Virus record (IMG/VR): IMGVR_UViG_3300031857_000009
Reading direction: 5' to 3' (one strand)
From: a virus
Lineage: Duplodnaviria > Heunggongvirae > Uroviricota > Caudoviricetes
Length of the DNA: 64,000 nt
Position 1 is the stretch's first letter. Every line of letters starts with the position of its first letter. The notes under the pieces were generated by a model. The model did not search any database. It was not told where the DNA came from and worked only from the letters and a program-made list of their open reading frames with translations. Both the position numbers and the translations under genes were made by a program. Below, in pieces: positions 5,158-54,450 of the stretch.

Positions 5158-5448
5158 ATGAAAAAAATATTATTTATATCAGCACTTGGATTAGTTGGTT
5201 GTGGAACCAATCGAACATATATCCAACACGGGGACAAGGCATTAGTAAGTGGACACAAAGTTTACTTTATCGATTGCAACATAACCCGAGAAGTAATTAA
5301 ACCCCAATGGGATAAAGGTTCATATGGTGATACCATGAAGGTATACTTAGTGGATACACTGACATTTATGAATATGTGTAGAAAAGCATCACCATGTGGA
5401 TGTTCACCAGCAGGAACAACCGCAAATAAAACTGTAACAAAAACTTAG
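5158..5448 (+). CDS. putative lipoprotein
   Basis: N-terminal MKKILFISALGLVGCG lipobox signal peptide. Confidence 0.55.
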   Translation: MKKILFISALGLVGCGTNRTYIQHGDKALVSGHKVYFIDCNITREVIKPQWDKGSYGDTMKVYLVDTLTFMNMCRKASPCGCSPAGTTANKTVTKT

Positions 5449-20284: not shown

Positions 20285-20512
20285 TTATTTTCCACAGGGA
20301 CAATGTCCTGCGTGTGTGATTCCTGAACCATGACTTCTATCGATTATGAGATAAGTATGTCCCTTATGTTCCCATTCAAAAACTCTGTATTCGGATTGAT
20401 TACTAAGTTTAATAGTTTGGGGGTTATTCCTATCGTTTACAACTTGTTTTGTGTTTGGTTCAGAACATGATGTGACGAGTAAAACAAATAAAATAATACT
20501 ACTTAATCTCAT
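20285..20512 (-). CDS. putative lipoprotein
   Basis: MRLSSIILFVLLVTSC lipobox. Confidence 0.45.
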   Translation of the reverse strand: MRLSSIILFVLLVTSCSEPNTKQVVNDRNNPQTIKLSNQSEYRVFEWEHKGHTYLIIDRSHGSGITHAGHCPCGK

Positions 20513-21374: not shown

Positions 21375-21629
21375 TTATTTTTTTATTTTTCTTTCGATTA
21401 CATACACAGTATCACCTTTTTCATATGACCTGTACGATGTTATTTTCATTTCGGGGTTTTTTAGATACAATTTCCAATATGGAGTTGTTTGTAAAGTATT
21501 GTCACAACCAATTCCATGATATTCAACAGAATCAACAATACATGGGATTTTAGTGTCAGTATATTGTGTCTTGTACTTGCAAGACATTAATATTAGACCC
21601 AAAAAAATTACAAATGTTAGATTTTTCAT
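21375..21629 (-). CDS. putative lipoprotein
   Basis: MKNLTFVIFLGLILMSC lipobox. Confidence 0.45.
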   Translation of the reverse strand: MKNLTFVIFLGLILMSCKYKTQYTDTKIPCIVDSVEYHGIGCDNTLQTTPYWKLYLKNPEMKITSYRSYEKGDTVYVIERKIKK

Positions 21630-26000: not shown

Positions 26001-26024
26001 AAAAAAAAATCCCCTTTCGGGGAT
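26001..26024 (-). terminator. rho-independent terminator (minus strand)
   Basis: The plus strand reads AAAAAAAAA then ATCCCCTTTCGGGGAT, so the minus strand has a hairpin followed by a U-run. Confidence 0.6.
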
Positions 26025-26028
26025 TAAA

Positions 26029-26385
26029 TTAATATGGATTTTCAAATGTCAACGAGTCTAAGGACTCATCTATTTTGGAATTATACCACCCATTTATCCA
26101 ACATTTTGTGGTATCACCAATTTTGGCGGGTTTATTGGTTAGTATTGTGACACCATTTTCAAATGTTATATGATATTGATTTTGGAATATTTCTTCACAG
26201 GATACTACCGGTACAGGATACCACTCTTTTTCGCTCCTTGGTATAACTTCCTCACTTATTTCTTCCTCAACTATATTTTCATCTGTAATATAGTTATGTA
26301 TCTTTTCTTTATTAAAATGAAGAATACCAGTGAAAATTATGACCGTTATAAACGCCAAAAGAATCCTGACTTGTTTTATATCCAT
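26029..26385 (-). CDS. membrane-anchored hypothetical protein
   Basis: N-terminal TM segment ILLAFITVIIFTGIL. Confidence 0.45.
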   Translation of the reverse strand: MDIKQVRILLAFITVIIFTGILHFNKEKIHNYITDENIVEEEISEEVIPRSEKEWYPVPVVSCEEIFQNQYHITFENGVTILTNKPAKIGDTTKCWINGWYNSKIDESLDSLTFENPY

Positions 26386-26387: not shown

Positions 26388-26954
26388 TTAAAATTTTTCT
26401 TTTAATTTTTCAGTTTGAATTATGTCTTTCAATAATTTAACATACCCTTCACCCGCTTCGGCGTAGGTATTTGATAAATACAAATAGTATTCATTTTCAG
26501 TATTAATCTGACCAAGGTATCGGCATTGGTAAAACGCATAATCATAAACAGATTGGTACCAGTTATCATAAAACGCGTGACCGTTTTGAGTTCCTTTGGC
26601 GGTGTTGATTCTAACTGTCGCCTGTTTCATACCAAACAGATTATTATTTTCCTTGAAAACTTGACTTTTGTAATGTCCCGTCTCAGCAATGGCTTGAGCC
26701 ATAACAATATGTGGAAATTTAACGTTTAATCTTTTTAGTTCTGATACAAACTTATCCTCTGAAAATTTATTTTTTTCTTTTTCTAATGAAATTACGATTA
26801 ATTCTTTTTCGTAACTGTCCAAACTTTTAAACCGTATAAAACGACCTAAAATAAATGAAGAGATTACCAAAACAATTACAACCGACAACGCGATTTTTAC
26901 TTTTTTCCAATCCTTTTTCCAAAGGAGTAGAGAGTTATCATATTTGTAAAACAT
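26388..26954 (-). CDS. peptidoglycan hydrolase, mannosyl-glycoprotein endo-beta-N-acetylglucosaminidase (FlgJ-type) domain
   Basis: N-terminal TM anchor, then MAQAIAETGHYKS...NNLFGMK, which matches the glucosaminidase signature. Confidence 0.65.
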   Translation of the reverse strand: MFYKYDNSLLLWKKDWKKVKIALSVVIVLVISSFILGRFIRFKSLDSYEKELIVISLEKEKNKFSEDKFVSELKRLNVKFPHIVMAQAIAETGHYKSQVFKENNNLFGMKQATVRINTAKGTQNGHAFYDNWYQSVYDYAFYQCRYLGQINTENEYYLYLSNTYAEAGEGYVKLLKDIIQTEKLKEKF

Positions 26955-26995: not shown

Positions 26996-27370
26996 TTAAC
27001 TTTTCGTAAAATGGTCCACGACCATTCTTGCACTTGAGTAGTTTGTAGCTAATGCCACTTCGTGCACATCACAAACCCTCATTAACATTTGTACATCAGG
27101 TTCGTGCGGGTGTTTATCCAATGGGTCCCTAAAAAATATAACCGCATCGATTTCTTTTCTCGAGACCATTGCAGCAATTTCCGCGTCTCCACCCATTGGT
27201 CCTGAATTGACTTGTTCAACCTTTGTAACACCAGCAAACATTATTCTTTTACCTGTCGTACCCGTTGCAACAATATCAACATCGGTTCGATTAAAAAAAT
27301 CTAATCGTTTCATTACAAAGGCAACCATGTCCGCCTTCTTACCGTCGTGTGCTATGAGTGCTATTTTCAT
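26996..27370 (-). CDS. mgsA: methylglyoxal synthase
   Basis: IALIAHDGKK, VATGTTG, GPMGGDAEIAA, IFFRDPL and CDVHEVALATN match MgsA along its full length. The ATG is at 27370; the track starts 2 codons upstream at a TTG. Confidence 0.8.
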   Translation of the reverse strand: MKIALIAHDGKKADMVAFVMKRLDFFNRTDVDIVATGTTGKRIMFAGVTKVEQVNSGPMGGDAEIAAMVSRKEIDAVIFFRDPLDKHPHEPDVQMLMRVCDVHEVALATNYSSARMVVDHFTKS

Positions 27371-27372
27371 AA

Positions 27373-27840
27373 TCAAAAAATAAACAACCTACCCCCAATC
27401 ATAAACTGAGGTTTATCGGTTTGATAAAAACTTAAAGTTAAGTACAAGGGATATGATAATTTCAAATTTGCAGCGGTCTTCAATATAATTTGATTACCAC
27501 CATCAACAGATAAACCCGCCCCACCTGTTAAAATTAACCATTTATAATCTTTATTTGTGTAAACGTAATTTAAAACAACATAAATTTCTTCAGGTCTACC
27601 ATTGATTGTTAAAGTATTGGGGTTAAATAAATTTAATTCGGCCATCAATTTACCATAACCAATTCCAATAAAGGCATTTGTTTTTTCTTTGGAGAATTCG
27701 TAACCCGCGGAATAATATGATGAATTACCTCTAGGACCATAAGATAATCCATAATTGAATATTCTTTGGGGTACTCTTAACCCTTGTGCCCATGTGTTGT
27801 TCATCAACAGCATACAAAATATCATTAAGAATTTTTTCAT
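27373..27840 (-). CDS. small outer-membrane beta-barrel protein (OmpX/OmpW-like)
   Basis: Signal peptide MKKFLMIFCMLLMNNTWAQ, alternating amphipathic strands and a C-terminal Phe. The stop is 2 nt from the mgsA start. Confidence 0.5.
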   Translation of the reverse strand: MKKFLMIFCMLLMNNTWAQGLRVPQRIFNYGLSYGPRGNSSYYSAGYEFSKEKTNAFIGIGYGKLMAELNLFNPNTLTINGRPEEIYVVLNYVYTNKDYKWLILTGGAGLSVDGGNQIILKTAANLKLSYPLYLTLSFYQTDKPQFMIGGRLFIF

Positions 27841-27898
27841 TTTTTATGATTTACATACAAATATATTACTAGTATTTGAGATATCCAAATTTTTTTTC

Positions 27899-27924
27899 AA
27901 AAAAAAGAGGGACCGAAATCCCTC
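27899..27924 (-). terminator. rho-independent terminator (minus strand)
   Basis: A-run then GAGGGACCGAAATCCCTC on the plus strand. Confidence 0.55.
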
Positions 27925-27949
27925 CTTACAAATTTAGATTTGATTGTAA

Positions 27950-31543: not shown

Positions 31544-31577
31544 AAAAAACCCCTCTTTCGAGGGGTTCTTTTTATTT
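31544..31577 (-). terminator. bidirectional-looking rho-independent terminator
   Basis: AAAAAA, then CCCCTCTTTCGAGGGG, then TTCTTTTTATTT. Confidence 0.6.
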
Positions 31578-32423
31578 AATACCTATCATCGTATTATTTT
31601 TGTCACCTAACATGGTTTCGGGTAACTTCCCATTCCATTTATTAATCCATTCAAGTTGTAGGAGTAAAGGTGTAATTGTTTGTTGTTTCATCCGATTGGC
31701 TTCGGATTCCGCTTTAGCCGCGGTCAACATTGCTTGAGCATTACCATTGGCGGTTGCAATTTTAATCTTGGCTTGAGCTTCCGCAGTTTTTACCTCATTT
31801 TCCGCCCTTAACGCTGCTTGGACCGCATTGTTCTTGGCTTCAATGGACTTCTTAAATGTCTCAGGGTAAATCAAATTTGAGGTGAATTGGTTTATCACAA
31901 ACCCTTCTTTTAAAAGTTGACTTTCCAATAGTTTACGAACCTCAACTTCAAACACCGCCCTATTCGAGATTAGTTCATCAGCAGTGTACTTATTTGTTGC
32001 TAAACGAAACGCGTCATATACTGCGGTCTTTAAAAATCCCTCCTCAATTTCAGGTAATGACCTACGATACTTTGAAAATATTGTGGGTACTTTTTCTCTT
32101 TGAACCGAATAGTTCATAATTGGGGATACTTGAAACTCAGAACCGTCTTTTGAGTTTACAACAAATGAATTATCAGATTCCTCAGTTTTCTTATACTCTT
32201 TGTGTTGAATATAGGTTGGGAATTCATAAATCTTTGTTGTGAAGGGGTTGTAGAATACCATACCTGTACATTCGGTGACATCATCAACACCCTTTCCATC
32301 ACCATATAGATTTACTTTTACACCGACGTGACCGGCGTCAATTCTCTCACAAGAGAAAAACAATAAGGTTAGGATAATGAATCCTAAAATTCCGAAAATT
32401 AATCGTTTCAAAAATGGTTCCAT
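31572..32423 (-). CDS. SPFH/band-7 (stomatin/prohibitin-like) domain protein
   Basis: N-terminal TM segment, IDAGHVGVKV, and an alanine-rich coiled-coil region (AEAQAKIKIATANGNAQAM). Confidence 0.65.
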   Translation of the reverse strand: MEPFLKRLIFGILGFIILTLLFFSCERIDAGHVGVKVNLYGDGKGVDDVTECTGMVFYNPFTTKIYEFPTYIQHKEYKKTEESDNSFVVNSKDGSEFQVSPIMNYSVQREKVPTIFSKYRRSLPEIEEGFLKTAVYDAFRLATNKYTADELISNRAVFEVEVRKLLESQLLKEGFVINQFTSNLIYPETFKKSIEAKNNAVQAALRAENEVKTAEAQAKIKIATANGNAQAMLTAAKAESEANRMKQQTITPLLLQLEWINKWNGKLPETMLGDKNNTMIGIK

Positions 32424-35590: not shown

Positions 35591-36919
35591 TTACGCTAAA
35601 GATTTGATTTTTGGACTGGCACCTCTTTCGTAACCATCTACAACTTTGGCAACCAAAGTACCAGTACCCCAAGTCTTAAGTGATTCACACTTAGCAATTT
35701 CCGCAGCACCAATATCATTTACCAAACCATCAACAATACAAGTATAAAGACCATTTCTCAATGTTTTGATGGTTGCTTTCATACCGTCTTCTAAAGATTT
35801 GTAATTTTTAACACCAACACTATTTGCGTTAGTGGAACCCGGTAAATCCCATGTGGTATTAAATGGATTATATTTTCCACCCGAACCTTCTGACTGTCTC
35901 CAAGCGTATAAGAATTTTAAGTTTTCCTCACTTTCGGGTGCACCTAAATTTTCAAGTAGTTTTTTATAAAAATTGATGTCCGTTAAACCGTCAACATTGA
36001 TTTGTGAATTTTTAGCCGCTTGGTCAAGGTATTGTTTTAACTCTTCGGATTTAACACCTTTAGCTTTTAATAATTCCAATAACTTATTTAACATTTCAGG
36101 TGTGGCATTTTCAGAAGTACCACTACTAGAAGATGATTTACCACCATATTGTAAATGAAAATGACCACCAGTTGCGGCTTTGGTTGGATTGGTGTATTCA
36201 TCTATGTATGAAAAATTACCATCACTACTTTTTGTTGAGTTGAGTAATTTTATAAAATCGGAAGCGTTTTTTGAATTATATGGATTTAAAACCAAATCAA
36301 TTGCATTTCCTTTGGTGTGTTGACTTACGTAATTTAAATTATGGTGGAATTTATCGTTACCTGCGGTTATGGTAACCTCAACATCAGGATTACTTTGACT
36401 GTACTTGTCAAGAATTTGACTAACAATATCTGTGAGTTTGTCATTAATAGAACCACCACTGGTTAACTCATTACCTTTTTCGGTGTAACCTAAATCATCT
36501 AATTTATCTCTTAATGAATCGGCACTTTCTTTGATTACAGAATTATCTGATTTGAATTTTCTAACAGCACTTGCGGTTTCAGGACCAAATAAACCATCAA
36601 CACCAAATTTAGGTAACTCATAACCCAAGAGTATTAAACCAATTTGCATAGTTTCGACACCTTTTTGATATTCCATAGAACCTCTTGGTTGTTCTGATAA
36701 CCCACCCTGAGCTGCGGTATCTTCTAATGTCTTATAAAATTCTGCAACGTCAGGTGAAACTAAGTCCGCCTTTTTGGGGTCGTCTATTTTTTTTTCGTCT
36801 TTTTTACCTAACCCAATTTTACCCAATAAATCATCGATAAAATTTTCATTTACCATTGATTTACCGTAGGTAATTTCATGGATTCGTTGTAATTCTTCTT
36901 GTAGTGTGGGTTTTTTCAT
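35591..36919 (-). CDS. peptidoglycan-binding domain + peptidase M15 (VanY/L-Ala-D-Glu peptidase-like) cell-wall hydrolase (endolysin candidate)
   Basis: PG_binding_1-like GLFGPETASAVRKFK in the N-terminal third. SQHTKGNAIDLV (SxHxxGxAxD) and GGHFHLQ (HxH) are zinc-ligand motifs of the M15 family. Confidence 0.6.
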   Translation of the reverse strand: MKKPTLQEELQRIHEITYGKSMVNENFIDDLLGKIGLGKKDEKKIDDPKKADLVSPDVAEFYKTLEDTAAQGGLSEQPRGSMEYQKGVETMQIGLILLGYELPKFGVDGLFGPETASAVRKFKSDNSVIKESADSLRDKLDDLGYTEKGNELTSGGSINDKLTDIVSQILDKYSQSNPDVEVTITAGNDKFHHNLNYVSQHTKGNAIDLVLNPYNSKNASDFIKLLNSTKSSDGNFSYIDEYTNPTKAATGGHFHLQYGGKSSSSSGTSENATPEMLNKLLELLKAKGVKSEELKQYLDQAAKNSQINVDGLTDINFYKKLLENLGAPESEENLKFLYAWRQSEGSGGKYNPFNTTWDLPGSTNANSVGVKNYKSLEDGMKATIKTLRNGLYTCIVDGLVNDIGAAEIAKCESLKTWGTGTLVAKVVDGYERGASPKIKSLA

Positions 36920-41208: not shown

Positions 41209-43044
41209 TTAAAACTCTATGTCACCATTCATCAGTTGTTCAAATAAATCAGGTTCTCTTTGGTTGACTTCCTTCCCATTTATTTTAACTTTCACCTTTT
41301 TAATATCAATGTGGTTCAATAATCTTTGTGACGCAAATTTTCTAACTCTTTGTTTTAATATTTCTAATGATTCACCAAAATACTCAGGTGGTAACTTATT
41401 ACAAAAATGTCTCTCCTGAATACAGTCACCTGTTTTTTTGTTAAACTCACATGTTACTCTATCTGAACCACCGTTGGTCCTCAATGAAATTATCATTGAT
41501 GATTCTTTGTTTGCGTAACTGGCAACACAGTGGTGCATAAATGTACCCTCTTCCGAATATTCTTCTTCTCTCTTTAATATCACAGGAGAAAAAATATGAT
41601 TGTCGTTCTCAAATCGAGTCTTTATTTGTTCCTCCACTAATCTCACCATTCTGTTGTCATATTGATATTCGATTGACCAACCCTTTTTGATTAATGAACA
41701 TGTCTTGGATAGTTCAATGTGCTCTGTATGAAAGTCCGTGTAATTTGTTGCCCTCATTTTTATGTTAGGGTCAAATTCACGAATCTTTTCAATCATATCG
41801 AAGTGGTCTTTTATCAAAGTGTATATACCTCGAGTAACCGACGATACTGAATGGTCTCCTGCCGGTTTGGGAATCAGGGAATTTAAAATTTTAATGATAT
41901 TTTCCCTATCAACATTATCAATAAACAGGTGTCGGTGGTGATTTTTAGCACCTCTCAATTCAAGCGGTACCATAGAATGTGCATTACCATTATCTACCAT
42001 AAAAAGATTAAAACATTCACTTTTCAAAGAACCGAGGTATTTTGGATAATCCTTTCCAAGTAAATCACACATACATGAAAACTCTTGTAAATTTAATTTT
42101 GGATTTTCATGGAAAAGTTTCAAGGTAAATTTTGAATTTATTCCGTAACTATCCAAAATAGATTGCATTAATTTTCTCTGATTCTTTTTAAGGTATTTTT
42201 CAGTTGGGTAATGTATTTTAATAAGTGGTACAAAGTCGTTTGGTGTTTTTATTTTTTTCTTTTCCGCAAAGAATTCAATAAAACTAGTTATAAAAAAATG
42301 TTTATCAAATAAGTTTCCAACGTTAGTAGGTAAGTTTGGAATGTGATTTTTAATAACATTTACAAATTCGTGTTCATTAAATGTGTCATCAAATTCCTTA
42401 GCGATTTTAAGATTGTTACTAAACTCTTTTTTTAAATTGAAAAGACTGTTTGAACCCAACAAGATTTCTAACGTAGTAAATGAATTTTTTCTAAATCTTT
42501 TGGATTTTATCTTTCCAAAATTCATATCCCCAATCGTAAAATCTCCCTTCTGTAAATCAATTGTTAACGTCATTACCTTGGAAGATTTACGGAAATATTT
42601 CCAATTAAAATCACGATATCTGGTATTCTTGTAACACCTTATGTAAAGTTTACCTTCTCTAAGTTCTATTGTTCTTTCAAATGTTACAATTTGTATTGAT
42701 GAGAAAGGATTCCCATAATGTCTTTTTAAATGTTTTTCACTTGTTGTGTAACAAGGTTCTTTTGTCAATTTTATGAAAGAAACGTATTCTTTTTCTTTTT
42801 CACCATAAAAATATTTTGTCCTCGCACCCTTTGATGGTCTTGGTTCCAATTTTATGGTTTCAAATTTGGTATCCCTATTTACAACGGGCTCAAGTGTCTT
42901 AACCTGTTCAGTAAATAAAAAATCATCATCCAGTTCTTTACCATCAGATACAACAATTGGTATTGGTCTATCTTCAGACAACATACAATTATCCCTAACT
43001 AAATCTATTCTGAAATAAGAAAATCTTTGTTTGATGAGTTGCAT
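41209..43044 (-). CDS. PcfJ-like domain protein (paralogue B, conserved HCV motif)
   Basis: C-terminal EEGTFMHHCVASY plus the central block SILDSYGINSKF. Pfam PcfJ-like is characterised by an HCV motif (recalled, not searched). Confidence 0.45.
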   Translation of the reverse strand: MQLIKQRFSYFRIDLVRDNCMLSEDRPIPIVVSDGKELDDDFLFTEQVKTLEPVVNRDTKFETIKLEPRPSKGARTKYFYGEKEKEYVSFIKLTKEPCYTTSEKHLKRHYGNPFSSIQIVTFERTIELREGKLYIRCYKNTRYRDFNWKYFRKSSKVMTLTIDLQKGDFTIGDMNFGKIKSKRFRKNSFTTLEILLGSNSLFNLKKEFSNNLKIAKEFDDTFNEHEFVNVIKNHIPNLPTNVGNLFDKHFFITSFIEFFAEKKKIKTPNDFVPLIKIHYPTEKYLKKNQRKLMQSILDSYGINSKFTLKLFHENPKLNLQEFSCMCDLLGKDYPKYLGSLKSECFNLFMVDNGNAHSMVPLELRGAKNHHRHLFIDNVDRENIIKILNSLIPKPAGDHSVSSVTRGIYTLIKDHFDMIEKIREFDPNIKMRATNYTDFHTEHIELSKTCSLIKKGWSIEYQYDNRMVRLVEEQIKTRFENDNHIFSPVILKREEEYSEEGTFMHHCVASYANKESSMIISLRTNGGSDRVTCEFNKKTGDCIQERHFCNKLPPEYFGESLEILKQRVRKFASQRLLNHIDIKKVKVKINGKEVNQREPDLFEQLMNGDIEF

Positions 43045-43593: not shown

Positions 43594-44970
43594 TTACTTA
43601 TCAGAATTCAAGTTACCTTGAATTGACCATGTGAAATCTAATTTAACATCATTCTTAAATAACGATGTGTCCATCATATCAATGTATTGATTTGTGGTGT
43701 ATCCATTCTTACCCGTCATAGTCGACAATGCGTGACATGACATACAGTTTGTTTGCATTCCATACACAAAATCAGGTCTGAATTTGTTTTGTAAACTGAA
43801 AACTTTTGGACCAAATCCACCCTCTAAATAAGGATTGAAAGCAAGTATCGGTCTAGCGTTGTTGTCAGAACCGCCACTCACAGGTTGATTCGGCCAAACC
43901 ATTGCGTATGCTGTACTAACTGCGTAGTGTGAAGCGGCGCCTTTAAGTTCTTTAGGTCTAAGACCTGCTTCAAATTTAGAACTTGGTGAAGGAGGGTTAG
44001 ACGGGTCAGGGCACCAAAAATAAGTTTGCCATGTCCAATTTTTAAATTCTTTTGTTGTTACGTGCATGGCTACCAACAACACATAGTCACCTTCGATAAA
44101 TTGTCTACTTGGTGTAGTTCCAACGTCTTGGTGACTATTGAGATAGTCCGCACCTACTCTATCAATTTTATAATTAATAAAATCATTTACGTTACAGGTC
44201 GCATCTTTAATTTGTTCCTCTGTGGGATTTGATGTTGTTACAGGTACTAACTTTTTATTCGGTTCCTGTTTATTATTAACATCGGCGTAAACCCATTGTT
44301 GCCATTCATTATATCTATACGCTTTGGCCGGATTTGGTGATACCCAAACAGGTACTCTAATCAAACCGTTTTTACTTGGTACACCAGCATAATATGTTGG
44401 TTTGGTGGTGATTGAAGTATTAGGAAATTCAGGTACCGCACCAATTCCATCTTTTACCAAATATTTGTTCAATGACGATTGATTAAATAATTTGTTTGAT
44501 GTTGCAAAATGTGCCGCAGATGGGTCATAAGAAACTGTTTCCAACACAGTGAAGTTTGTGTCAATCTTTTGTCCCGCGAAAAGTTTACCATGTACAAATT
44601 GTTTCGGGATGTTAAGTTCAGTTCTGTTTGATTTTTCCATTGAACTTGAAACTTGACCCTGTGCAGACATTGCAGATAGTTCTTGAACACCCATCCAAGT
44701 TTCAAAAACCAACAATGTTTGACCATTGTATTTTTGTTTTGTTGGTTGAGTAAGTCCAGCCCAAATACCCCACGCGTGATTTACAATACTGGTTGTATCT
44801 TGATTCTCTAACCATCCGTAAATTTTCGTAGAGTCTTCAGGAAAATTGAATCCCGAAATACCTAAGTCCGTTGGGAACTCTTGTGGTTTAATTGTTTTAC
44901 TCGTGTCAGAACATGAGTATACGATTGTAAACAATCCTAAAATTAATAATAGTGTTTTTGTAATTTTCAT
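43594..44970 (-). CDS. secreted lipoprotein with single CxxCH motif
   Basis: Lipobox LLILGLFTIVYSC, and CMSCH near the C-terminus. Confidence 0.5.
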   Translation of the reverse strand: MKITKTLLLILGLFTIVYSCSDTSKTIKPQEFPTDLGISGFNFPEDSTKIYGWLENQDTTSIVNHAWGIWAGLTQPTKQKYNGQTLLVFETWMGVQELSAMSAQGQVSSSMEKSNRTELNIPKQFVHGKLFAGQKIDTNFTVLETVSYDPSAAHFATSNKLFNQSSLNKYLVKDGIGAVPEFPNTSITTKPTYYAGVPSKNGLIRVPVWVSPNPAKAYRYNEWQQWVYADVNNKQEPNKKLVPVTTSNPTEEQIKDATCNVNDFINYKIDRVGADYLNSHQDVGTTPSRQFIEGDYVLLVAMHVTTKEFKNWTWQTYFWCPDPSNPPSPSSKFEAGLRPKELKGAASHYAVSTAYAMVWPNQPVSGGSDNNARPILAFNPYLEGGFGPKVFSLQNKFRPDFVYGMQTNCMSCHALSTMTGKNGYTTNQYIDMMDTSLFKNDVKLDFTWSIQGNLNSDK

Positions 44971-45395: not shown

Positions 45396-46721
45396 TTAAT
45401 TACTTAAGGGTGCTTTAATCGATGGGTGTGATTGATAATTTTCGATTTGAAAATCCTTATTTTCCAAATGAGTTATTAAAGATGAGTCTTCAGATAATGA
45501 TTTATAAAATTCATCGGTCTTCATATGTTTTAGTTTGGGTAATTTATAAGGTTCTCTTGTGTATCGTGGTATTTTATATATCTCATAATATTCAGACATA
45601 CCTCCACCAAATGGTGCTAAGTCTTTCAACGCACTTTTATAACCATTAGGACCCATCGCCTCTTTTAACATACCTTCTCTCTCTTCATGTGTATACTTTC
45701 TACCGATTTGTTCTCTTGCTTGTTCAACATGGTTACTATACAAATGAGTATCACCTAAATTACCAATCAACTCATCAGGTACCATATTTACTTCTTTAGC
45801 AATAATCTCAAGTAACAAACCGTAAGAAGCAATATTGAATGGTAGACCTAAGAATGTGTCTACTGAGCGTTGATTCCACATTAAAGAGATTGCTCGTTTA
45901 GGAACTCTTAAACTATCCATGTGAACATCGTGATAATCACTACTTTGATTTAAAGGGTCTTTTGTTGAGTTATAATAATTAATCCTTTCATCTAAACTCA
46001 ACTCTCTCGTATAAACTTGAAATCCATAATGACAAGGTGGAAGAACCATTTGGTCCAGCTCTCCAACATTCCAAGCATTGACCATTAATCGTCTTGAGTC
46101 TGGATTTGTTTTAAGGTCGTTGATTAGGTTTGTGATTTGGTCTATTGAATTGTTTTGGTATTCTATTTTGACACCATACTTGGTAACATCTTCACCGATT
46201 TCAATTGCTTTTAGTACTCTGTGTTGGTCAGAACCTTTTACATCCTTTAAGTCGTAATTAGTCACATTCTTTCTACCCCATCTTCTCCATTGCTTACCAT
46301 ACACAGGTCCGAGGTCACCCCACTTCTTAGCAAACTCATCATCGGTTTTTATTTTGTTGATGAATTCTTCTTTTGTTAATCGAAATCCTAACTCTAACAT
46401 TTTTTCTTTTGACATATTAGGTAAGATTTTGGCATCTTCAATTAGATAGTTCTTATACGCATCACCATCCCAAATATGACAATTGTTATCAACAAGGAAC
46501 TTGATGTTTGTATCACCACGAAGGAACCATAACAATTCGGTTACCATCGTCTTCCACGCCATTTTCTTGGTTGTAAGTAATGGAAACCCATCGGACATTT
46601 TATGACGGATTGTATAACCAAAAATAGATTTGGTTCCTGTACCTGTACGGTCTTTCTTTTCTACCCCATAATCTATAATAGTTTGGAGTAAGTCTGTGTA
46701 TTGTTTATCTAATTTGTTCAT
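45396..46721 (-). CDS. thyA: thymidylate synthase (ThyA) homologue with large insertions
   Basis: RTGTGTKSIFG, LLWFLRGDTN, DLGPVYGKQWR, MVLPPCH (catalytic Cys), LGLPFNIASYGLL and GDTHLYSNH match ThyA. At 441 aa it is about 150 aa longer than canonical ThyA. Confidence 0.8.
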   Translation of the reverse strand: MNKLDKQYTDLLQTIIDYGVEKKDRTGTGTKSIFGYTIRHKMSDGFPLLTTKKMAWKTMVTELLWFLRGDTNIKFLVDNNCHIWDGDAYKNYLIEDAKILPNMSKEKMLELGFRLTKEEFINKIKTDDEFAKKWGDLGPVYGKQWRRWGRKNVTNYDLKDVKGSDQHRVLKAIEIGEDVTKYGVKIEYQNNSIDQITNLINDLKTNPDSRRLMVNAWNVGELDQMVLPPCHYGFQVYTRELSLDERINYYNSTKDPLNQSSDYHDVHMDSLRVPKRAISLMWNQRSVDTFLGLPFNIASYGLLLEIIAKEVNMVPDELIGNLGDTHLYSNHVEQAREQIGRKYTHEEREGMLKEAMGPNGYKSALKDLAPFGGGMSEYYEIYKIPRYTREPYKLPKLKHMKTDEFYKSLSEDSSLITHLENKDFQIENYQSHPSIKAPLSN

Positions 46722-47335
46722 TACTCAAATGTTTGAATTTTTGCGTCTACTTCTTTTAATTCAGACCACGTTCCAAGATACGTAATCGCTCTGACTTTTC
46801 TATTATCAATCCACACATATTCTTGGTCATCTTTGATTCTTGGTTTGTCCATAACCAATCCGTGATATTTAAAACCTTTTTCTTTTAACCATGTTTCGGT
46901 TACTTCACGGTCTTTACTTTCACGAGCGGTAAAAAATGTAATTACATTTCCCTCATCGTACCATTTGTTGATGATACCCAACGCGTTTGGGTAATGGTTA
47001 GCTGTCGGATAAAGATGTGAATCTTCATTTTTAATGTCGTCACAAATTGTCCCATCAATATCAATCAGAAAAACCCGACTAACCATTTTTTGCGTTATTA
47101 TGATGTCAGCAATTGTACTATGAAAAATATCATCGTACATTACTTGACAATTTGTTTTTAAAACATACTCGACTTCATCACCGTCTTTTACATCATATTT
47201 TCCGCTTTTTATTTTTTCTAAAGTTTCTTTTGATGCTTCAAAATTCTTTGATGAATCTTCAGAAACAATAAACCATCCTTCGACACTGTTAATAAGTTCG
47301 TCAGATTTTTTTTGATATATTAATTTACCTTTCAT
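46721..47335 (-). CDS. HAD-family phosphatase with N-terminal extra domain
   Basis: FLIDIDGTI motif I, TFFTAR motif II and WIDNR motif IV. There is a 1-nt overlap with thyA. Confidence 0.5.
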   Translation of the reverse strand: MKGKLIYQKKSDELINSVEGWFIVSEDSSKNFEASKETLEKIKSGKYDVKDGDEVEYVLKTNCQVMYDDIFHSTIADIIITQKMVSRVFLIDIDGTICDDIKNEDSHLYPTANHYPNALGIINKWYDEGNVITFFTARESKDREVTETWLKEKGFKYHGLVMDKPRIKDDQEYVWIDNRKVRAITYLGTWSELKEVDAKIQTFE

Positions 47336-47729
47336 TTCTAACCCATTTTCTATCTGAATTTAATGTAAAAGCACCAATAAAATCGTCACCCCGATTCCAA
47401 TCTTTTGGTGATAATAATGATAATGTATTTACACCATTAAAATTATATAAGTAATATGTTTCACCAACAATTGGGTCAAAAGAAATTTTTGATTCCCAAA
47501 CCATTATTGAATCCACATACTCTCTTTGAAGTTTTTCTATTGATTGAATGATTTCTTCTCTTTGACGATTAAAGACATCAATCATTTTTTTTGAGGACTC
47601 TTTTTTTACGAGACCCACATTAGGTAATTCAAATTTTGGCGAACCGATACTGGTAGGATAATGCTTTCTATTAGCGTCGTACCCATTTGTTTCATCCCAA
47701 ACAACAATATCAGGTTTCTTTTTATTCAT
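47325..47729 (-). CDS. hypothetical protein
   Basis: 134 aa ORF. Confidence 0.4.
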   Translation of the reverse strand: MNKKKPDIVVWDETNGYDANRKHYPTSIGSPKFELPNVGLVKKESSKKMIDVFNRQREEIIQSIEKLQREYVDSIMVWESKISFDPIVGETYYLYNFNGVNTLSLLSPKDWNRGDDFIGAFTLNSDRKWVRNER

Positions 47730-47881
47730 CCTCCAAACCGTCCATTAAAGTTACGTCCCAATCTGAAAAATCGTCACCTAATTCCATACCCAATTTCAAA
47801 TTTTCCAAAAAATTTTTTTCCCATTCCTCATAAGAAAGATTTGAGTTGGGATTTTGTTTAATGTAAATTTTATATTGTCTT

Positions 47882-48310
47882 TTAAGGGTTGACATCGTTT
47901 TGTTCAGAATCTCTTATGTCAATTAATTTTTGAATTCTACTCCTACCTTTTTCACCAATTGGTACCGGATTACCTTCTTCATCAATCCTAACAAACCTTA
48001 TGTTTGTTTTCAAGATGACAATTTGGTTACCTGTGTAAACATTATGTGCTCTTGCTTCCATATACAAGGTAACTGAAGTATTCCCTAATTTACTTGGTGA
48101 CCCGTAAATTTTAATCAACTGACCCTCTTTGGCTGGTTTTTCAAAAAAACATTTATCAATTGATACGGTAACTAATCTTGGTGAATCACACAATTGCATG
48201 GAGTATCCCGCAGCCGCCGCGTCAATCCACGCTAAAAGTTTTCCACCGAATAAATTTCCGTGGAATCCTAAATCCGACTTTTTTATGGGGTGTGAATTCA
48301 AAAATTCCAT
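47882..48310 (-). CDS. hotdog-fold acyl-CoA thioesterase (YciA/4HBT-like)
   Basis: GNLFGGKLLAWIDAAAA signature. Confidence 0.55.
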   Translation of the reverse strand: MEFLNSHPIKKSDLGFHGNLFGGKLLAWIDAAAAGYSMQLCDSPRLVTVSIDKCFFEKPAKEGQLIKIYGSPSKLGNTSVTLYMEARAHNVYTGNQIVILKTNIRFVRIDEEGNPVPIGEKGRSRIQKLIDIRDSEQNDVNP

Positions 48311-48658
48311 TACTCAAAAGTTATTTGTTCTCTAATAATGTATTCTTTTAATGCGTTTTCCGCTTCTATTTTAGTTGCAAAAACCCCAATAGTTTGGTCA
48401 AATTCTGTTGGGTCGGACACACCAAATTGTCCGTTTAATGTTTCATAAATGAACGTATCTAAAATTTGTTGACTTACCATAATTAATTTATATTTCTTGA
48501 TTTTTATTTGATTCCGATTCTTGATTTATTGATTCAGAATTTTTAGTCTCTTGCATTTTCTTAAATAAATTCATCAATGTGGACTCTTCTCTCTTTAATC
48601 TTTGATTACGAGCTTGAACTTTTTTTCTATGTTCTTTGTCTTTTTTTCCCATGGTATT

Positions 48659-49783
48659 TTATTCTTCTTCATCTTTTCGATAACTTTCCAAGAGTTCCTC
48701 CCCTGAAAGTGTACCGTATTTATTTACAATTTTTTCGGTGTCTATTTCAACATTCATCATGTGATGAACATTATTTAATTCTTCGGCTAATGATAAACTA
48801 TCACTAATCACTTTAACGATTTTATATGGGTCCGCGTGTGATGCTGGTCTCCTGTCTTCAAGATAACCCTTCCATGTCTCACCAACGGATTTTGGTACAC
48901 GGATAGATGCACCTCTGTCTGAGACACCCCAACTAAATTTATCAATAGATTGTGTCTCAAAATGACCTGTTAATCTCAAATGGTTATCAGAACCATAAGA
49001 GTCAATATGTTCTTGTGTTCTTGATTCAAAAGACCTAAAAATTGCATTGAAGTATTGTTCACCACCCTCTTCTCTCATTTTTTGATTTGAGAAATTTGTA
49101 TGTAAACCTGAACCGTTCCATTCTCCGTGGGTCATCGGTTTGGGATGTAACTCAATAGAACGACCATATTTCTCAGCAATTTTATGTAAAAAATATCTAC
49201 TCATCCATAAATCATCAGAAGCGGCAATTTTACCTGTTGCAAAAATTTGGTATTCCCATTGACCTAATGCAACCTCTGAATTGGTTCCCTCCACATTGAT
49301 GTCATATTTTAAACACATGTTCAAATGTTCATCAGAAATATTTCGACCAACAATATGTCCACCTACACCACAATAATAAATTCCTTGACCGTCAATGATA
49401 CCATTTCTTTCAAATCCAAGAATTGGATTATTATGTGAAGAACGAATAAAATATTCCTGTTCAAATCCAACCCAAAAATTTACATCTTCCTCACCTACTT
49501 TTGCTCTATGATTTGATGGATGAATTTCATTATTACCATCTAAAACCTCACATAATACATATACTGTATCAAGTGAACTATTTGTATGATATAATTTTAC
49601 TGGCTTAAGATAACAATCTGAAAAGTTACCTTCCGCTTGTTTAGTTGAGCTTCCGTCAAACCCCCAATTGGGGATGTGTTTCAATTCAAATGGTGCCGGT
49701 AGGTCCACAATTTTTATTTTACTTCTGAGATTTGGCTCAGGGGAATACCCATCAAGCCATACGTATTCTACTTTTGTTTTCAT
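48659..49783 (-). CDS. glnII: glutamine synthetase, type II (eukaryote-like GSII)
   Basis: VEYVWLDG beta-grasp start, NWGFDGSST, GFEQEYF, GIYYCGVG, NGSGLHTNFS, RLTGHFETQSI, SIRVP and LEDRRPAS are collinear with GSII over about 370 aa. Confidence 0.8.
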   Translation of the reverse strand: MKTKVEYVWLDGYSPEPNLRSKIKIVDLPAPFELKHIPNWGFDGSSTKQAEGNFSDCYLKPVKLYHTNSSLDTVYVLCEVLDGNNEIHPSNHRAKVGEEDVNFWVGFEQEYFIRSSHNNPILGFERNGIIDGQGIYYCGVGGHIVGRNISDEHLNMCLKYDINVEGTNSEVALGQWEYQIFATGKIAASDDLWMSRYFLHKIAEKYGRSIELHPKPMTHGEWNGSGLHTNFSNQKMREEGGEQYFNAIFRSFESRTQEHIDSYGSDNHLRLTGHFETQSIDKFSWGVSDRGASIRVPKSVGETWKGYLEDRRPASHADPYKIVKVISDSLSLAEELNNVHHMMNVEIDTEKIVNKYGTLSGEELLESYRKDEEE

Positions 49784-52215: not shown

Positions 52216-53673
52216 ATGATTACAATAGGTTACAGTACAAGAGAGTCCAACCCAAAATTTCAAGAATATTTAAAAAAAACTTGTGGACACCCCAAAGTTC
52301 AAGTTATTGAAAAAGTAAACAATGGTGAAAAAAGTCTTTCACAAACTTACAATGAAATTATTCAAGAGTCGATTCATGATATTGTCGTACTTTGTCATGA
52401 TGACATTTACTTTAATACGACTTCGTGGGGTAGAAAATTAGTCAAACATTTTGAAGAATCTGACTACGGGATTCTCGGTGTTGCCGGTACAACCAATATT
52501 CATGAGAGTGGTAGGTGGTGGACAGATAATACCAAAATGGTTGGTATTGTTAATCATGAAAATGAGGGTAAAAAATGGGAATCGAGATATGCAAATGGAA
52601 TCCCAAATTCAATTCACGAAGTTTGTTTAGTGGATGGTTTATTCATTGGAATCCACAAAAACAGAATAAAACACACTTTTGATGAGTCAGTACCGGGTTT
52701 TCATTTTTATGATATGGTATTCTGTACTAGCAATCACTTAAGTGAGGTAAACATCGGTGTTATATACAACATAAGAATCACTCACAAATCAATCGGAATG
52801 ACCAATGATTCTTGGGAAAAGAATAGGGAATTTTACATTGAAAAATTTAAAGAGAACCTACCAATTAATATAACACCAAAAATTGATTATGACATAACCA
52901 AACCAAAACAGTTTAAAGATAAATTTAATTTAATAGTTCAAACATCAAACGATAATGAAAATTTAATTCAGTTTTTTGAAAACATAAAAAAATTACCAGT
53001 GTTTGATAGTTTACAGATTTCACTCATCTCGACGGATACCAATATAGACAATATTAGAGAATTTGAATCTGAAAATATTAAAATTTACGAGGGTTTTTTT
53101 GATACATTAAATAAAAACTTATCAGTACTGAAATGGGATGAATCGTTTATGGAATCAAAAACAGATTTGTTATTTTTCAGTAATGATACTGTTACCGTAT
53201 TGAACGACGTTTTCTCAAGTATGTATTCAATATTTAAGAGTGAAAAAAATACTTTTGGGTGCGTCTTTCCTACAGTATTAGAAAACGACCGAACAATTTT
53301 TTCAAATGGATTGGATATAGTTCAAAACAACGAACAGTTCAATTTAATTTTTAAAAACAAATCATCTTTTTTCAATATTTTACACGGACACTTTCCAAAC
53401 AATTTTGGTAGTATTAGTGACTTTTTTGCCACTACATCTACAAATTTAAAAATGATTGATTGGTTTGATATTAATTTAGAAACATCAATTTATAACTTAG
53501 ATTTTGCGTTGAAAACTTTACTTAAAAAACGTAAAACATTCATTGACACAAACAGTGTGGTAATGATTGATATGGCATCAAAATTTGAAAAGGTTGATGT
53601 TGAATTAAAACAAGTCTTAGGTCAGTACATAAACTCACCTGAAATTAGAAAAAATATCAAACAATTAAGATGA
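52216..53673 (+). CDS. glycosyltransferase (GT-A/GT2-like N-terminal domain) with C-terminal extension
   Basis: IGYSTRESN...VVLCHDDIYF resembles the GT2 N-terminus. It is the first gene of an overlapping operon. Confidence 0.45.
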   Translation: MITIGYSTRESNPKFQEYLKKTCGHPKVQVIEKVNNGEKSLSQTYNEIIQESIHDIVVLCHDDIYFNTTSWGRKLVKHFEESDYGILGVAGTTNIHESGRWWTDNTKMVGIVNHENEGKKWESRYANGIPNSIHEVCLVDGLFIGIHKNRIKHTFDESVPGFHFYDMVFCTSNHLSEVNIGVIYNIRITHKSIGMTNDSWEKNREFYIEKFKENLPINITPKIDYDITKPKQFKDKFNLIVQTSNDNENLIQFFENIKKLPVFDSLQISLISTDTNIDNIREFESENIKIYEGFFDTLNKNLSVLKWDESFMESKTDLLFFSNDTVTVLNDVFSSMYSIFKSEKNTFGCVFPTVLENDRTIFSNGLDIVQNNEQFNLIFKNKSSFFNILHGHFPNNFGSISDFFATTSTNLKMIDWFDINLETSIYNLDFALKTLLKKRKTFIDTNSVVMIDMASKFEKVDVELKQVLGQYINSPEIRKNIKQLR

Positions 53674-54449: not shown

Positions 54450-54450
54450 A

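What the first reader, a model, noticed from the sequence alone, without database searches (positions are those of the whole stretch)
26996..27840. Methylglyoxal synthase translationally coupled to an outer-membrane beta-barrel gene
mgsA is unmistakable and starts 2 nt after the stop of a signal-peptide-bearing OMP-like protein ending in Phe. Phage-encoded MgsA would divert DHAP to toxic methylglyoxal. This could be a host-metabolism throttle or a bacteriostatic takeover device. The OMP could mediate superinfection exclusion.
Basis: partly seen in the sequence, partly recalled or inferred. Interest (0 to 1): 0.6.

Follow-up and report, generated by a model that had tools for sequence, protein, structure and literature searches.

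The report
Phage methylglyoxal synthase plus barrel protein
A large uncultured phage of Bacteroidota carries an intact, strongly conserved methylglyoxal synthase gene directly behind a gene for a very small outer-membrane barrel protein; the enzyme is a widespread but unstudied phage metabolic gene, whereas nothing shows that its pairing with the barrel gene in this one lineage is functional.

Summary
On the minus strand, a 155-aa protein (27840-27373) has a signal peptide, a predicted 8-stranded outer-membrane beta-barrel and a C-terminal Phe. It is followed 2 nt later by a 124-aa methylglyoxal synthase (MgsA, 27370-26996) with every catalytic and phosphate-binding residue intact.

The context looks like a phage, probably over 190 kb, infecting Bacteroidota, although no capsid or terminase gene was seen in the roughly 84 kb read.

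Three things change the reading:
- A 2-nt gap is ordinary here: 40 of 101 same-strand gene pairs have gaps of 2 nt or less.
- MgsA relatives occur in at least 157 IMG/VR viral contigs, in many different neighbourhoods including T4-like ones. Only six distinct contigs have the barrel gene upstream.
- The pair belongs to a terminator-bounded operon with a Bacteroidota-type promoter. The operon also encodes a membrane-anchored glucosaminidase.

MgsA is under very strong purifying selection (dN/dS 0.01-0.12). My best guess is a phosphate-releasing glycolytic bypass gene, with the barrel as an independent envelope gene. A toxin-based takeover is not excluded.

One virome paper already lists phage mgsA. 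This is a new member of a known kind, of moderate interest.

The parts
27904..27927 (-). Intrinsic-terminator-like hairpin ending the upstream 346-aa gene. It marks the 5' boundary of the operon.
   Evidence: 10-bp stem with 4 GC pairs followed by a T-run; the hairpin is kept in relatives through compensatory changes (GGAGGGATTTCGGTCCCTC / ATGGGGGTAAAACCCCAT / GGGGGTTTTTGACCCCC).
27858..27889 (-). Bacteroidota-type promoter-like motif TTTG-N20-TAtaTTTG, ending 17 nt upstream of the barrel gene's ATG.
   Evidence: the motif TTTG-N17-21-TAnnTTTG occurs 15 times in the window against 4.8 +/- 2.0 in shuffles (0 of 100 shuffles reach 15), and one copy lies here; the block AAAAAAATTTGGATAT...TATATTTG is conserved in 5 relatives. 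That this motif is the Bacteroides sigma-A consensus is my own recollection.
27373..27840 (-). Gene for a 155-aa exported protein. Signal peptide aa 1-19 (27840-27784), conserved tail aa 20-40 (27783-27721), predicted 8-stranded outer-membrane beta-barrel aa 41-155 (27720-27376), stop 27375-27373.
   Evidence: No Pfam, NCBIfam or PHROG hit. Only 18 homologues among 5.8 billion proteins, and 8 among 1.84 billion cluster representatives.
26996..27370 (-). mgsA, methylglyoxal synthase, 124 aa (short form without the E. coli C-terminal Arg150 tail).
26388..26954 (-). 188-aa protein with an N-terminal transmembrane segment (about aa 19-40) and a glucosaminidase domain. It is endolysin-like and is kept downstream of mgsA in all barrel-mgsA relatives.
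   Evidence: Pfam PF01832 at 1.2e-13. PHROG endolysin families; same cluster at +1 or +3 from mgsA in 9 loci. The transmembrane segment is read directly from the sequence.
26029..26385 (-). 118-aa protein with an N-terminal transmembrane segment and no known family. It is the last gene of the operon and is present only in the closest relatives.
   Evidence: cluster found in L001 and L082 only.
26008..26025 (-). Intrinsic-terminator-like hairpin plus T-run. It marks the 3' boundary of the operon.
   Evidence: 7-bp stem with 4 GC pairs, followed by TTTTTTTATT.

Best explanation
What it is (identity confidence about 0.9). The region is a four-gene transcription unit, bounded by terminators and driven by a host-type promoter, in a large uncultured phage of Bacteroidota. 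Contigs carrying identical proteins reach 157-194 kb and more. The unit encodes four proteins:
1. A minimal 8-stranded outer-membrane beta-barrel, exported by Sec, cut by signal peptidase I before Gln and inserted by BAM through its C-terminal G-x-x-F-x-F signal.
2. A cytoplasmic, catalytically intact methylglyoxal synthase.
3. A membrane-anchored peptidoglycan glucosaminidase.
4. A small membrane protein.

How it most likely works (inferred). MgsA acts as an auxiliary metabolic gene. During infection it converts dihydroxyacetone phosphate to methylglyoxal plus inorganic phosphate. This opens the classical methylglyoxal bypass of lower glycolysis. The bypass frees phosphate locked in triose and sugar phosphates and relieves sugar-phosphate stress when phosphate is being drained into replication of a very large genome. 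Host detoxification would carry methylglyoxal on to lactate and pyruvate.

The barrel gene is probably an independent envelope gene. It sits directly upstream and is co-transcribed in this lineage, and it is not shown to be a functional partner of MgsA.
For: Identity of MgsA:
- Family scores and residues as.
- All 12 active-site and phosphate-site residues are invariant in 57 unique viral-clade sequences.

Selection:
- MgsA is 78-97% identical among six relatives whose synonymous sites are saturated (dS above 1), giving dN/dS 0.01-0.12.
- The barrel gives dN/dS 0.1-0.4.

Independence of the two genes:
- At least 157 IMG/VR contigs, up to 310 kb, encode a relative of this MgsA.
- Their neighbourhoods differ. 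In one cluster of 19 loci a T4 Gp23 capsid gene lies mostly 4 genes from mgsA. In another cluster of 19 loci a thymidylate synthase gene lies mostly 1-2 genes away.
- Only six distinct contigs have the barrel gene at -1.

Operon structure.

Bacteroidota host:
- Promoter motif enrichment.
- Gln directly after the signal peptide in all 16 family members, which matches the Bacteroidetes Q-rule (PMC5837995).
- The helicase is closest to Bacteroides, Chryseobacterium and Flavobacterium phages.

Phosphate logic:
- The same window carries several other phosphate-releasing enzymes: three Metallophos, NUDIX, NT5C-like and two HAD phosphatases.
- A freshwater virome paper lists phage mgsA on a 120-kb scaffold that takes up to 8.8% of reads in one sample (PMC8066274).
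Against: - No experiment or expression data exist. The phosphate-bypass role rests only on the known biochemistry of cellular MgsA.
- No glyoxalase, DJ-1 or aldo-keto reductase domain was found in the 64-kb window. Detoxification would depend on the host, so a toxic outcome is equally possible.
- The phosphate held in triose phosphates is small compared with the demand of a genome over 150 kb. Any benefit would have to come from flux, not from the pool.
- The barrel-mgsA adjacency, with a 1-2 nt gap, survives in L098/L099. There, extra genes have been inserted on both sides and the barrel is only about 33% identical. This hints at some linkage.
- No capsid, portal or terminase gene was seen in the roughly 84 kb examined.
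- Sample metadata, including phosphate status, were not available.
Confidence: 0.45

Rival explanations
1. Toxin-based takeover. MgsA is expressed to flood the cell with methylglyoxal. This electrophile arrests host growth, replication and translation, so the enzyme is a shut-off device and not a metabolic helper.
For: - Methylglyoxal is a cytotoxic electrophile that reacts with DNA and proteins (review PMC12096831).
- No detoxification gene was found in the window.
- The host-type promoter suggests transcription by unmodified host RNA polymerase, which would mean early expression (inference).
- The short form lacks the C-terminal Arg150 tail, which strengthens cooperative phosphate inhibition in E. 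coli (PMC4133812).
Against: - Methylglyoxal would damage phage DNA and proteins as well.
- The short form is shared with cellular Bacteroidota MgsA, so it is not a phage-specific deregulation.
- The protein changes very little across very different phages, so there is no sign of a new specialisation.
- Host shut-off proteins described so far act on host macromolecules directly (own knowledge).
Confidence: 0.2
2. Envelope or lysis module. The barrel, the membrane-tethered glucosaminidase and the small membrane protein form an envelope-spanning or lysis-related set. MgsA is functionally tied to it, for example as a metabolic timer or trigger of envelope failure.
For: - All four genes lie between one promoter and one terminator.
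- Barrel, MgsA and glucosaminidase stay together in all six lineages.
- The glucosaminidase hits PHROG endolysin families.
- The most conserved part of the barrel protein is the N-terminal tail, aa 20-40. Standard barrel topology places it in the periplasm, where it could contact a partner.
Against: - There is no lipobox Cys, so it is not an o-spanin (sequence).
- The 118-aa membrane protein occurs only in the closest relatives.
- The whole region is syntenic, so co-conservation is expected by descent alone.
- A host-type promoter fits early genes better than late lysis genes (inference).
- Most mgsA-carrying phages have no such neighbours.
- A second peptidoglycan-binding, endolysin-like gene lies at 35591-36919.
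Confidence: 0.08
3. The barrel mediates superinfection exclusion or receptor masking, or alters the host surface. It acts independently of MgsA.
For: - Small phage-encoded outer-membrane barrels are common. BFVD matches include Tenacibaculum phage Gundel_1, Synechococcus phage S-CBWM1 and Vibrio phage nt-1.
- The barrel evolves faster than its neighbours.
- The window also encodes a 12-gene glycosyltransferase, methyltransferase and epimerase cluster and several lipoproteins, so envelope remodelling is a theme of this phage.
Against: - Predicted outer loops are only 4, 11, 6 and 4 residues long and are the least conserved parts.
- The periplasmic tail is the most conserved part.
- There is little surface available to mask a receptor.
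Confidence: 0.15
4. The window is host chromosome or a mis-binned bacterial contig, and mgsA is simply the host's glycolytic gene.
For: - No virion gene was found in the roughly 84 kb inspected.
- A few genuinely bacterial contigs carry MgsA of the same clade: L003 next to 2-oxoglutarate dehydrogenase genes, and L007 next to a TonB-dependent receptor.
Against: - Relatives with the same gene order are IMG/VR viral contigs of 46-310 kb.
- There are 116 ORFs at 92% coding density, most without any family, and no tRNA, ribosomal or core metabolic genes.
- Phage-family hits include helicase phrog_1967 and, in the flanks, GP88 and Phage_L5_gp82.
- In a cultured Algoriphagus genome, mgsA sits beside phosphofructokinase, a quite different context.
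Confidence: 0.03

Closest known systems
Bacterial methylglyoxal synthase MgsA (EC 4.2.3.3), e.g. Thermus 2x8w/1wo8, B. subtilis 6f2c, E. coli 1b93
   Same: Same fold family and length class as the short Thermus and Bacteroidota enzymes. All catalytic and phosphate-binding residues are identical. It passes the NCBIfam equivalog model NF003559.
   Different: It is encoded by a phage. It belongs to a sequence cluster that is mostly viral and is at most about 71% identical to ordinary Bacteroidota chromosomal MgsA. It lacks the E. coli C-terminal Arg150 allosteric tail, as do its cellular relatives.
Phage mgsA listed as an auxiliary metabolic gene in the Lake Baikal viromes (PMC8066274)
   Same: A methylglyoxal synthase gene on a large (120 kb) freshwater viral scaffold, assigned by automated annotation.
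   Different: That paper gives one line and no analysis. Its scaffold was typed as similar to Caulobacter phage Cr30 (T4-like). The present lineage has the barrel gene upstream and Bacteroidota signatures. I could not compare the sequences.
Aquatic phage auxiliary metabolic genes that rewire central carbon and phosphate metabolism (cyanophage talC, CP12, pstS, phoH; own knowledge)
   Same: A host-derived metabolic enzyme is kept under purifying selection in many unrelated large aquatic phages.
   Different: The product is a toxic electrophile plus phosphate. No cultured phage in the INPHARED collection carries it; the hits are unannotated fragments and faecal contigs only. No PHROG family exists for it.
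Small 8-stranded outer-membrane barrels (OmpA N-domain, NspA, OmpX/Ail, OmpW, PagL) and phage lambda Lom
   Different: No sequence membership in any Pfam or NCBIfam outer-membrane family. The barrel is minimal, about 115 residues with very short loops, and its top structural match is a designed barrel. It carries a conserved 21-residue N-terminal tail. The family is tiny and found only in metagenomes.
Phage lysis cassettes of Gram-negative hosts (holin, endolysin, spanins; own knowledge)
   Same: A peptidoglycan hydrolase with an N-terminal membrane segment is clustered with other envelope-targeted small proteins.
   Different: The outer-membrane component is a barrel and not a lipoprotein. 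A cytoplasmic glycolytic enzyme sits inside the cluster. The promoter looks host-type and not late.

Membership tests
Methylglyoxal synthase (MgsA; NF003559 / TIGR00160 / PF02142) | Whole-protein score above the curated equivalog cutoff | tested here: met
   NF003559 at 154.7 bits against a cutoff of 84, and Pfam MGS at 53 bits against 24.1. TIGR00160 at 144.6 bits falls just below its 146.9 cutoff.
Methylglyoxal synthase (MgsA; NF003559 / TIGR00160 / PF02142) | Catalytic residues Asp71, His98, His19, Asp20, Asp91, Asp101 (E. coli numbering) | tested here: met
   They align to D62, H89, H8, D9, D82 and D92. They are invariant in 57 viral-clade sequences and, with two minor exceptions, in the 77 cellular ones. 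The residue roles are recalled from the E. coli structure literature.
Methylglyoxal synthase (MgsA; NF003559 / TIGR00160 / PF02142) | Phosphate-binding residues Lys23, Thr45, Thr47, Thr48, Ser65, Gly66 | tested here: met
   They align to K12, T36, T38, T39, S56 and G57.
Methylglyoxal synthase (MgsA; NF003559 / TIGR00160 / PF02142) | Enzymatic conversion of DHAP to methylglyoxal plus Pi; homohexamer; phosphate inhibition | not testable with these tools
   This needs a recombinant enzyme assay. The C-terminal Arg150 tail that raises phosphate cooperativity in E. coli is absent (PMC4133812). The tail is not a defining feature of the family.
8-stranded outer-membrane beta-barrel proteins (OmpA-N / OmpX / NspA / OmpW class) | Cleavable N-terminal Sec signal peptide | tested here: met
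   MKK, then a hydrophobic core, then TWA|Q. AF2 models residues 2-18 as a helix. All 16 family members have Gln straight after the predicted cut, as the Bacteroidetes Q-rule predicts. No dedicated signal-peptide predictor was available.
8-stranded outer-membrane beta-barrel proteins (OmpA-N / OmpX / NspA / OmpW class) | Closed antiparallel 8-stranded barrel with lipid-facing alternating hydrophobic residues | tested here: met
8-stranded outer-membrane beta-barrel proteins (OmpA-N / OmpX / NspA / OmpW class) | C-terminal BAM beta-signal ending in an aromatic residue | tested here: met
   ...G-G-R-L-F-I-F has Gly at -6 and Phe at -3 and -1. All 16 members end in F or Y. The consensus itself is recalled from the literature.
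8-stranded outer-membrane beta-barrel proteins (OmpA-N / OmpX / NspA / OmpW class) | Sequence membership in a curated outer-membrane protein family (e.g. OMP_b-brl, OmpA_membrane, Ail_Lom, OmpW) | tested here: not met
   No Pfam hit at E <= 0.01, no NCBIfam hit at E <= 0.1 and no PHROG hit at E <= 0.01. It shares the fold class but is not a member of a named family.
8-stranded outer-membrane beta-barrel proteins (OmpA-N / OmpX / NspA / OmpW class) | Localisation in the outer membrane | not testable with these tools
   This needs fractionation or heat-modifiability assays in a Bacteroidota host.
Phage auxiliary metabolic gene | A host-type metabolic gene located inside a viral genome and flanked by viral genes | tested here: met
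   Syntenic IMG/VR contigs and phage-family neighbours. In another mgsA lineage, a T4 Gp23 capsid gene lies mostly 4 genes away. No virion gene was seen on this genome itself within the roughly 84 kb read.
Phage auxiliary metabolic gene | Maintained by selection in phages, not a transient passenger | tested here: met
   dN/dS 0.01-0.12 with saturated synonymous sites. At least 157 viral contigs carry it.
Spanin (o-spanin) / canonical lysis cassette | Outer-membrane component is a lipoprotein with a lipobox Cys | tested here: not met
   The mature protein starts QGLRVPQ... and the only Cys of the protein lies inside the signal peptide.

The most novel reading that the evidence does not exclude
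Methylglyoxal is made on purpose as an effector. The co-transcribed set of outer-membrane barrel, MgsA and membrane-tethered glucosaminidase would then be a metabolite-driven takeover or lysis-timing module. In it, a burst of an endogenous electrophile arrests the host or destabilises the envelope, while the envelope proteins exploit or channel that state. This would be a phage strategy with no described precedent.
Probability: 0.1. Interest if true: 0.8.

Novelty: new member of a known kind. Interest (0 to 1): 0.4.

Why it matters
Methylglyoxal synthase is an unusual thing for a virus to carry. Its product is toxic, and its other product is free phosphate. Here it turns out to be common in large uncultured aquatic phages, extremely well conserved, and absent from every cultured phage genome searched. 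It is therefore an unstudied metabolic lever of infection.

If it is a phosphate-sparing bypass, it adds a new route to the known phosphate-scavenging strategies of aquatic phages. If it is a toxin generator, it would be a new kind of host shut-off.

The barrel protein adds an orphan, minimal outer-membrane barrel family to the phage envelope-modifying repertoire. The work also shows that the gene pairing that drew attention is probably inherited gene order, with no demonstrated mechanism behind it.

Tried and rejected
- Megablast of 24 kb around the locus against 50,697 phage records gave no match.
- tblastn of the barrel protein against phage records gave no match.
- PHROGs has nothing for MgsA or the barrel.
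- An exact 51-mer of the barrel gene is not in IMG/VR. Only relatives are there.
- The afdb50 fold library was unavailable.
- 'Special translational coupling' was rejected because gaps of 2 nt or less are the norm in this window.
- 'MgsA clade is purely viral' was rejected. Six cellular-labelled loci fall inside the clade, and the two whose neighbours I scanned are really bacterial: L003, on high-GC DNA, lies next to 2-oxoglutarate dehydrogenase genes, and L007, from a Flavobacteriales MAG, lies next to a TonB receptor. The tree is a quick neighbour-joining tree and should not be over-read.
- 'The phage brings its own methylglyoxal detoxification' was rejected. No glyoxalase, DJ-1 or aldo-keto reductase domain appears among ORFs of 70 aa or more in the window.
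- 'Universal partner gene of phage mgsA' was rejected. Clustering the neighbours across 86 loci found none.
- Walking 10 kb beyond each end of the window found more phage-like and accessory genes but no capsid or terminase gene.
- 'MgsA in cultured phages' is not supported. The 22 hits in the phage collection are unannotated fragments labelled Listeria or Enterococcus phage and human faecal 'Bacteriophage sp.' contigs, at 32-48% identity. I could not verify their status.
Full report
**1. The observation**

The interval 26996-27840 holds two minus-strand ORFs.

- The upstream ORF runs from 27840 to 27373 and encodes 155 aa. It starts MKKFLMIFCMLLMNNTWAQG and ends GGRLFIF-stop.
- Two nucleotides after its TGA, an ATG at 27370 opens a 124-aa ORF that ends at 26996.
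- The ORF listing also offers a TTG at 27376. That codon is not conserved in relatives, and all relatives begin MKIALIAHDGKK.

The downstream protein is methylglyoxal synthase.

- It scores 154.7 bits on the NCBIfam equivalog NF003559 (cutoff 84) and 144.6 bits on TIGR00160 (cutoff 146.9, narrowly missed). It hits Pfam MGS.
- It matches solved MgsA structures at E = 5e-33 (Thermus 2x8w).
- It is 39% identical to E. coli MgsA.
- The E. coli active-site and phosphate-site residues H19, D20, K23, T45, T47, T48, S65, G66, D71, D91, H98 and D101 align to H8, D9, K12, T36, T38, T39, S56, G57, D62, D82, H89 and D92.

**2. The upstream protein**

It has no Pfam, NCBIfam or PHROG match. It has only 18 homologues among 5.8 billion proteins and 8 among 1.84 billion cluster representatives, all from metagenomes.

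AlphaFold2 on a 14-sequence alignment gives a signal helix (residues 2-18), a low-confidence segment (19-40) and eight strands of 9-13 residues (41-154). The best model has pLDDT 73.9, but the other four models are poor at 47-52.

- Foldseek agrees on the fold class.

Sequence features also fit.

- Hydrophobicity alternates from residue to residue, most clearly in strands 2, 3, 6, 7 and 8.
- The C-terminus G-x-x-F-x-F resembles the BAM beta-signal. All 16 family members end in F or Y.
- Every member has Gln immediately after the predicted signal-peptidase site. This is the Bacteroidetes 'Q-rule' (PMC5837995).

Predicted outer loops are only 4, 11, 6 and 4 residues long and are the least conserved parts. 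The most conserved segments are the N-terminal tail (aa 20-40, R-I-P-Q-R-I-F-N-Y-x-L-S-Y-G-P-R-G-N-S) and strand 1. Standard barrel topology would place that tail in the periplasm.

BFVD holds many phage-encoded small outer-membrane barrels, so the kind is known even though this family is an orphan.

**3. Phage or host**

The window has 116 ORFs at 92% coding density. It has no tRNA and no housekeeping families.

- Its UvrD-like helicase hits phrog_1967 and is closest to Bacteroides phage DAC (36% identity), Chryseobacterium phage and Flavobacterium phages.
- The identical MgsA and flanking proteins lie on metagenomic contigs of 156,909 and 194,260 bp. In 14 data blocks they lie on contigs of 0.2-1 Mb.
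- Ten kb beyond each end of the window there are more small unknown genes. They include phage families GP88 and Phage_L5_gp82, plus glutaredoxin, thioredoxin, Dam methylase and an amidase.
- Relatives with the same gene order are IMG/VR viral contigs of 46-310 kb.

I did not see a capsid, portal or terminase gene in the roughly 84 kb I could read. 'Phage' is therefore very likely but rests on context.

Bacteroidota host signatures are threefold.

- The Q-rule noted above.
- Low G+C of about 32%.
- Threefold enrichment of the motif TTTG-N17-21-TAnnTTTG: 15 copies against 4.8 +/- 2.0 in shuffles, with 0 of 100 shuffles reaching 15. That this is the Bacteroides sigma-A promoter consensus is from memory.

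**4. Anatomy of the locus**

- A terminator-like hairpin (27927-27904) closes the upstream 346-aa gene.
- A copy of the promoter motif (27889-27858) ends 17 nt before the barrel gene's ATG.
- The next terminator-like hairpin is at 26025-26008.
- Between them lie four genes with gaps of 2, 41 and 2 nt: the barrel gene, mgsA, a 188-aa glucosaminidase and a 118-aa membrane protein.
- The glucosaminidase has a strongly hydrophobic N-terminal membrane segment and matches Pfam PF01832 and PHROG endolysin families.

Across relatives, the hairpin is kept through compensatory changes and the promoter block is conserved.

The 2-nt spacing is not informative. Of 101 same-strand neighbouring pairs in the window, 40 have gaps of 2 nt or less.

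**5. Comparative picture**

The barrel-mgsA pair, always 1-2 nt apart, occurs on six distinct contigs: L001 (the window genome), L082, L094/L096, L095/L100, L097 and L098/L099.

- Barrel identity falls to about 33% across these contigs, while MgsA stays at 78-97%.
- In L098/L099, extra genes are inserted on both sides of the pair, yet the pair stays together.
- The whole region is syntenic in these phages, so inheritance explains most of the co-conservation.

MgsA has a far wider distribution.

- At least 157 IMG/VR contigs encode a relative.
- In the 86 loci analysed, no neighbouring gene family is universal.
- In one cluster of 19 loci, a T4-type Gp23 capsid gene lies mostly four genes from mgsA. 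In another cluster of 19 loci, a thymidylate synthase gene lies mostly one or two genes away.
- Two other phage-like metagenomic contexts also lack the barrel gene.

A neighbour-joining tree places 57 unique viral or phage-context sequences in one cluster with six cellular-labelled ones.

- L003, one of a group of three high-GC loci (L002-L004), lies next to 2-oxoglutarate dehydrogenase genes.
- L007, from a Flavobacteriales MAG, lies next to a TonB receptor. These two are truly bacterial.
- Ordinary Bacteroidota chromosomal MgsA is at most about 71% identical. An example is Algoriphagus, where the gene sits beside phosphofructokinase.
- All 120 best metagenomic hits are closest to a member of this cluster: 119 to a viral or phage-context sequence and one to a cellular-labelled locus.

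Selection is strong.

- Synonymous sites between the six relatives are saturated.
- MgsA has dN/dS of 0.01-0.12.
- The glucosaminidase has 0.02-0.10.
- The barrel has 0.1-0.4.

All twelve functional residues are invariant in the 57 viral-clade sequences. The E. coli C-terminal tail with Arg150 raises cooperativity towards phosphate (PMC4133812). It is absent, but it is equally absent from the cellular relatives.

**6. Mechanism**

Shown:
- An intact MgsA is encoded in a phage-like genome.
- It lies between the same promoter-like motif and terminator-like hairpin as three envelope-directed proteins, so co-transcription is predicted from sequence.
- It is conserved under strong constraint.

Inferred, and my preferred reading (about 0.45): MgsA is an auxiliary metabolic gene that opens the methylglyoxal bypass.

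- DHAP is converted to methylglyoxal plus Pi.
- This releases phosphate from the triose-phosphate pool and lets carbon flow past the phosphate-requiring lower glycolysis.
- The phage meanwhile draws phosphate into a very large genome.
- MGS is strongly phosphate-inhibited in most organisms, and the pathway runs under phosphate limitation (PMC8600716).
- The window also carries many phosphate-releasing enzymes.
- The one literature mention comes from an oligotrophic lake virome (PMC8066274).

The barrel is best seen as an independent envelope gene.

No detoxification gene is present in the window, and methylglyoxal is cytotoxic. However, it would also damage the phage.

A linked envelope or lysis module is possible but weakly supported (about 0.08). 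A surface-exclusion role for the barrel is not favoured by its tiny loops.

**7. Comparison with what is known, and novelty**

- The enzyme is a bona fide member of the MgsA family.
- The barrel shares the OmpA-N/NspA/OmpX fold class but belongs to no named family.
- Phage mgsA has been listed once as an auxiliary metabolic gene, without analysis.
- No PHROG exists for it.
- No cultured phage genome in the collection searched carries it.

I file the finding as a new member of a known kind. The added value here is threefold: the gene is widespread and tightly constrained in uncultured large phages, the pairing with the barrel gene is restricted to one lineage, and the locus is a defined operon with Bacteroidota signals. 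I rate the interest as moderate, at 0.4.

Noticed in passing
window 45396-46721 (-): The thymidylate-synthase homologue is 441 aa, much longer than usual. The PHROG and Pfam matches span residues 1-351 against a profile of about 265 positions, so there is an internal insertion plus a C-terminal extension. It could be a dUMP/dCMP hydroxymethylase-type enzyme or carry an inserted element.
   Followed up: no
window 46721-49783 (-): Directly downstream of the ThyA homologue lie a HAD/acid-phosphatase-like protein (46721-47335), DUF2452 (47328-47729), a 4HBT thioesterase (47885-48310) and a glutamine-synthetase-like protein (48659-49783; Gln-synt_N and Gln-synt_C). This might be a nucleotide or DNA-modification cluster, or a second metabolic module. 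A 4HBT thioesterase also sits next to mgsA in L098/L099.
   Followed up: partly
window 52216-63267 (+), continuing past the window end (L178): A run of a dozen or more overlapping genes for glycosyltransferases (families 2 and GT-D-like), FkbM methyltransferases, a UDP-GlcNAc 2-epimerase and an NAD-dependent epimerase. This is a phage-encoded glycan-synthesis cluster, possibly for host surface or virion glycosylation.
   Followed up: partly
window 652-683, 1409-1440, 1797-1828 (+): Three identical 32-nt copies of TTTGGTATAAAAGAAAAATTGTTATATCTTTG. They match the Bacteroidota promoter motif and sit in front of successive small genes. They look like a repeated early-promoter cassette.
   Followed up: no
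window 5158-5448 (+), 20285-20512 (-), 21375-21629 (-), 31572-32423 (-), 43594-44970 (-): Five ORFs begin with a lipoprotein-type signal, a hydrophobic stretch ending in Cys. They include a Band_7/SPFH protein and a 458-aa protein of unknown family (phrog_19967). This phage sends many proteins to the host envelope.
   Followed up: no
window 26996-27370 versus flanks; also L105: mgsA has 41% G+C, against 31-34% in the 3-kb flanks. The same contrast is seen in another phage lineage (L105: 41.5% against 31-33%). It may reflect strong amino-acid constraint or origin from a donor with higher G+C.
   Followed up: partly
L002, L003, L004 (genome contigs): Bacterial MAG contigs with 62-65% G+C carry an MgsA that is 71-72% identical to the phage enzyme and nested in the mostly viral clade. 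They are labelled proteobacterium, Cognaticolwellia and uncultured bacterium. In L003 the gene lies next to 2-oxoglutarate dehydrogenase genes. The direction of transfer, bacterium to phage or the reverse, is unresolved.
   Followed up: partly
window 35591-36919 (-): A second cell-wall-directed gene: a 442-aa protein with a PG_binding_1 domain and a weak PHROG endolysin match. The glucosaminidase beside mgsA may therefore not be the main lysis enzyme.
   Followed up: no
window 41209-43044 (-) and 151-627 (+): A PcfJ-like protein (611 aa) and a SprT-like protein. Just outside the window, DUF932 also occurs (L176). These families are frequent on plasmids and conjugative elements as well as phages.
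   Followed up: no
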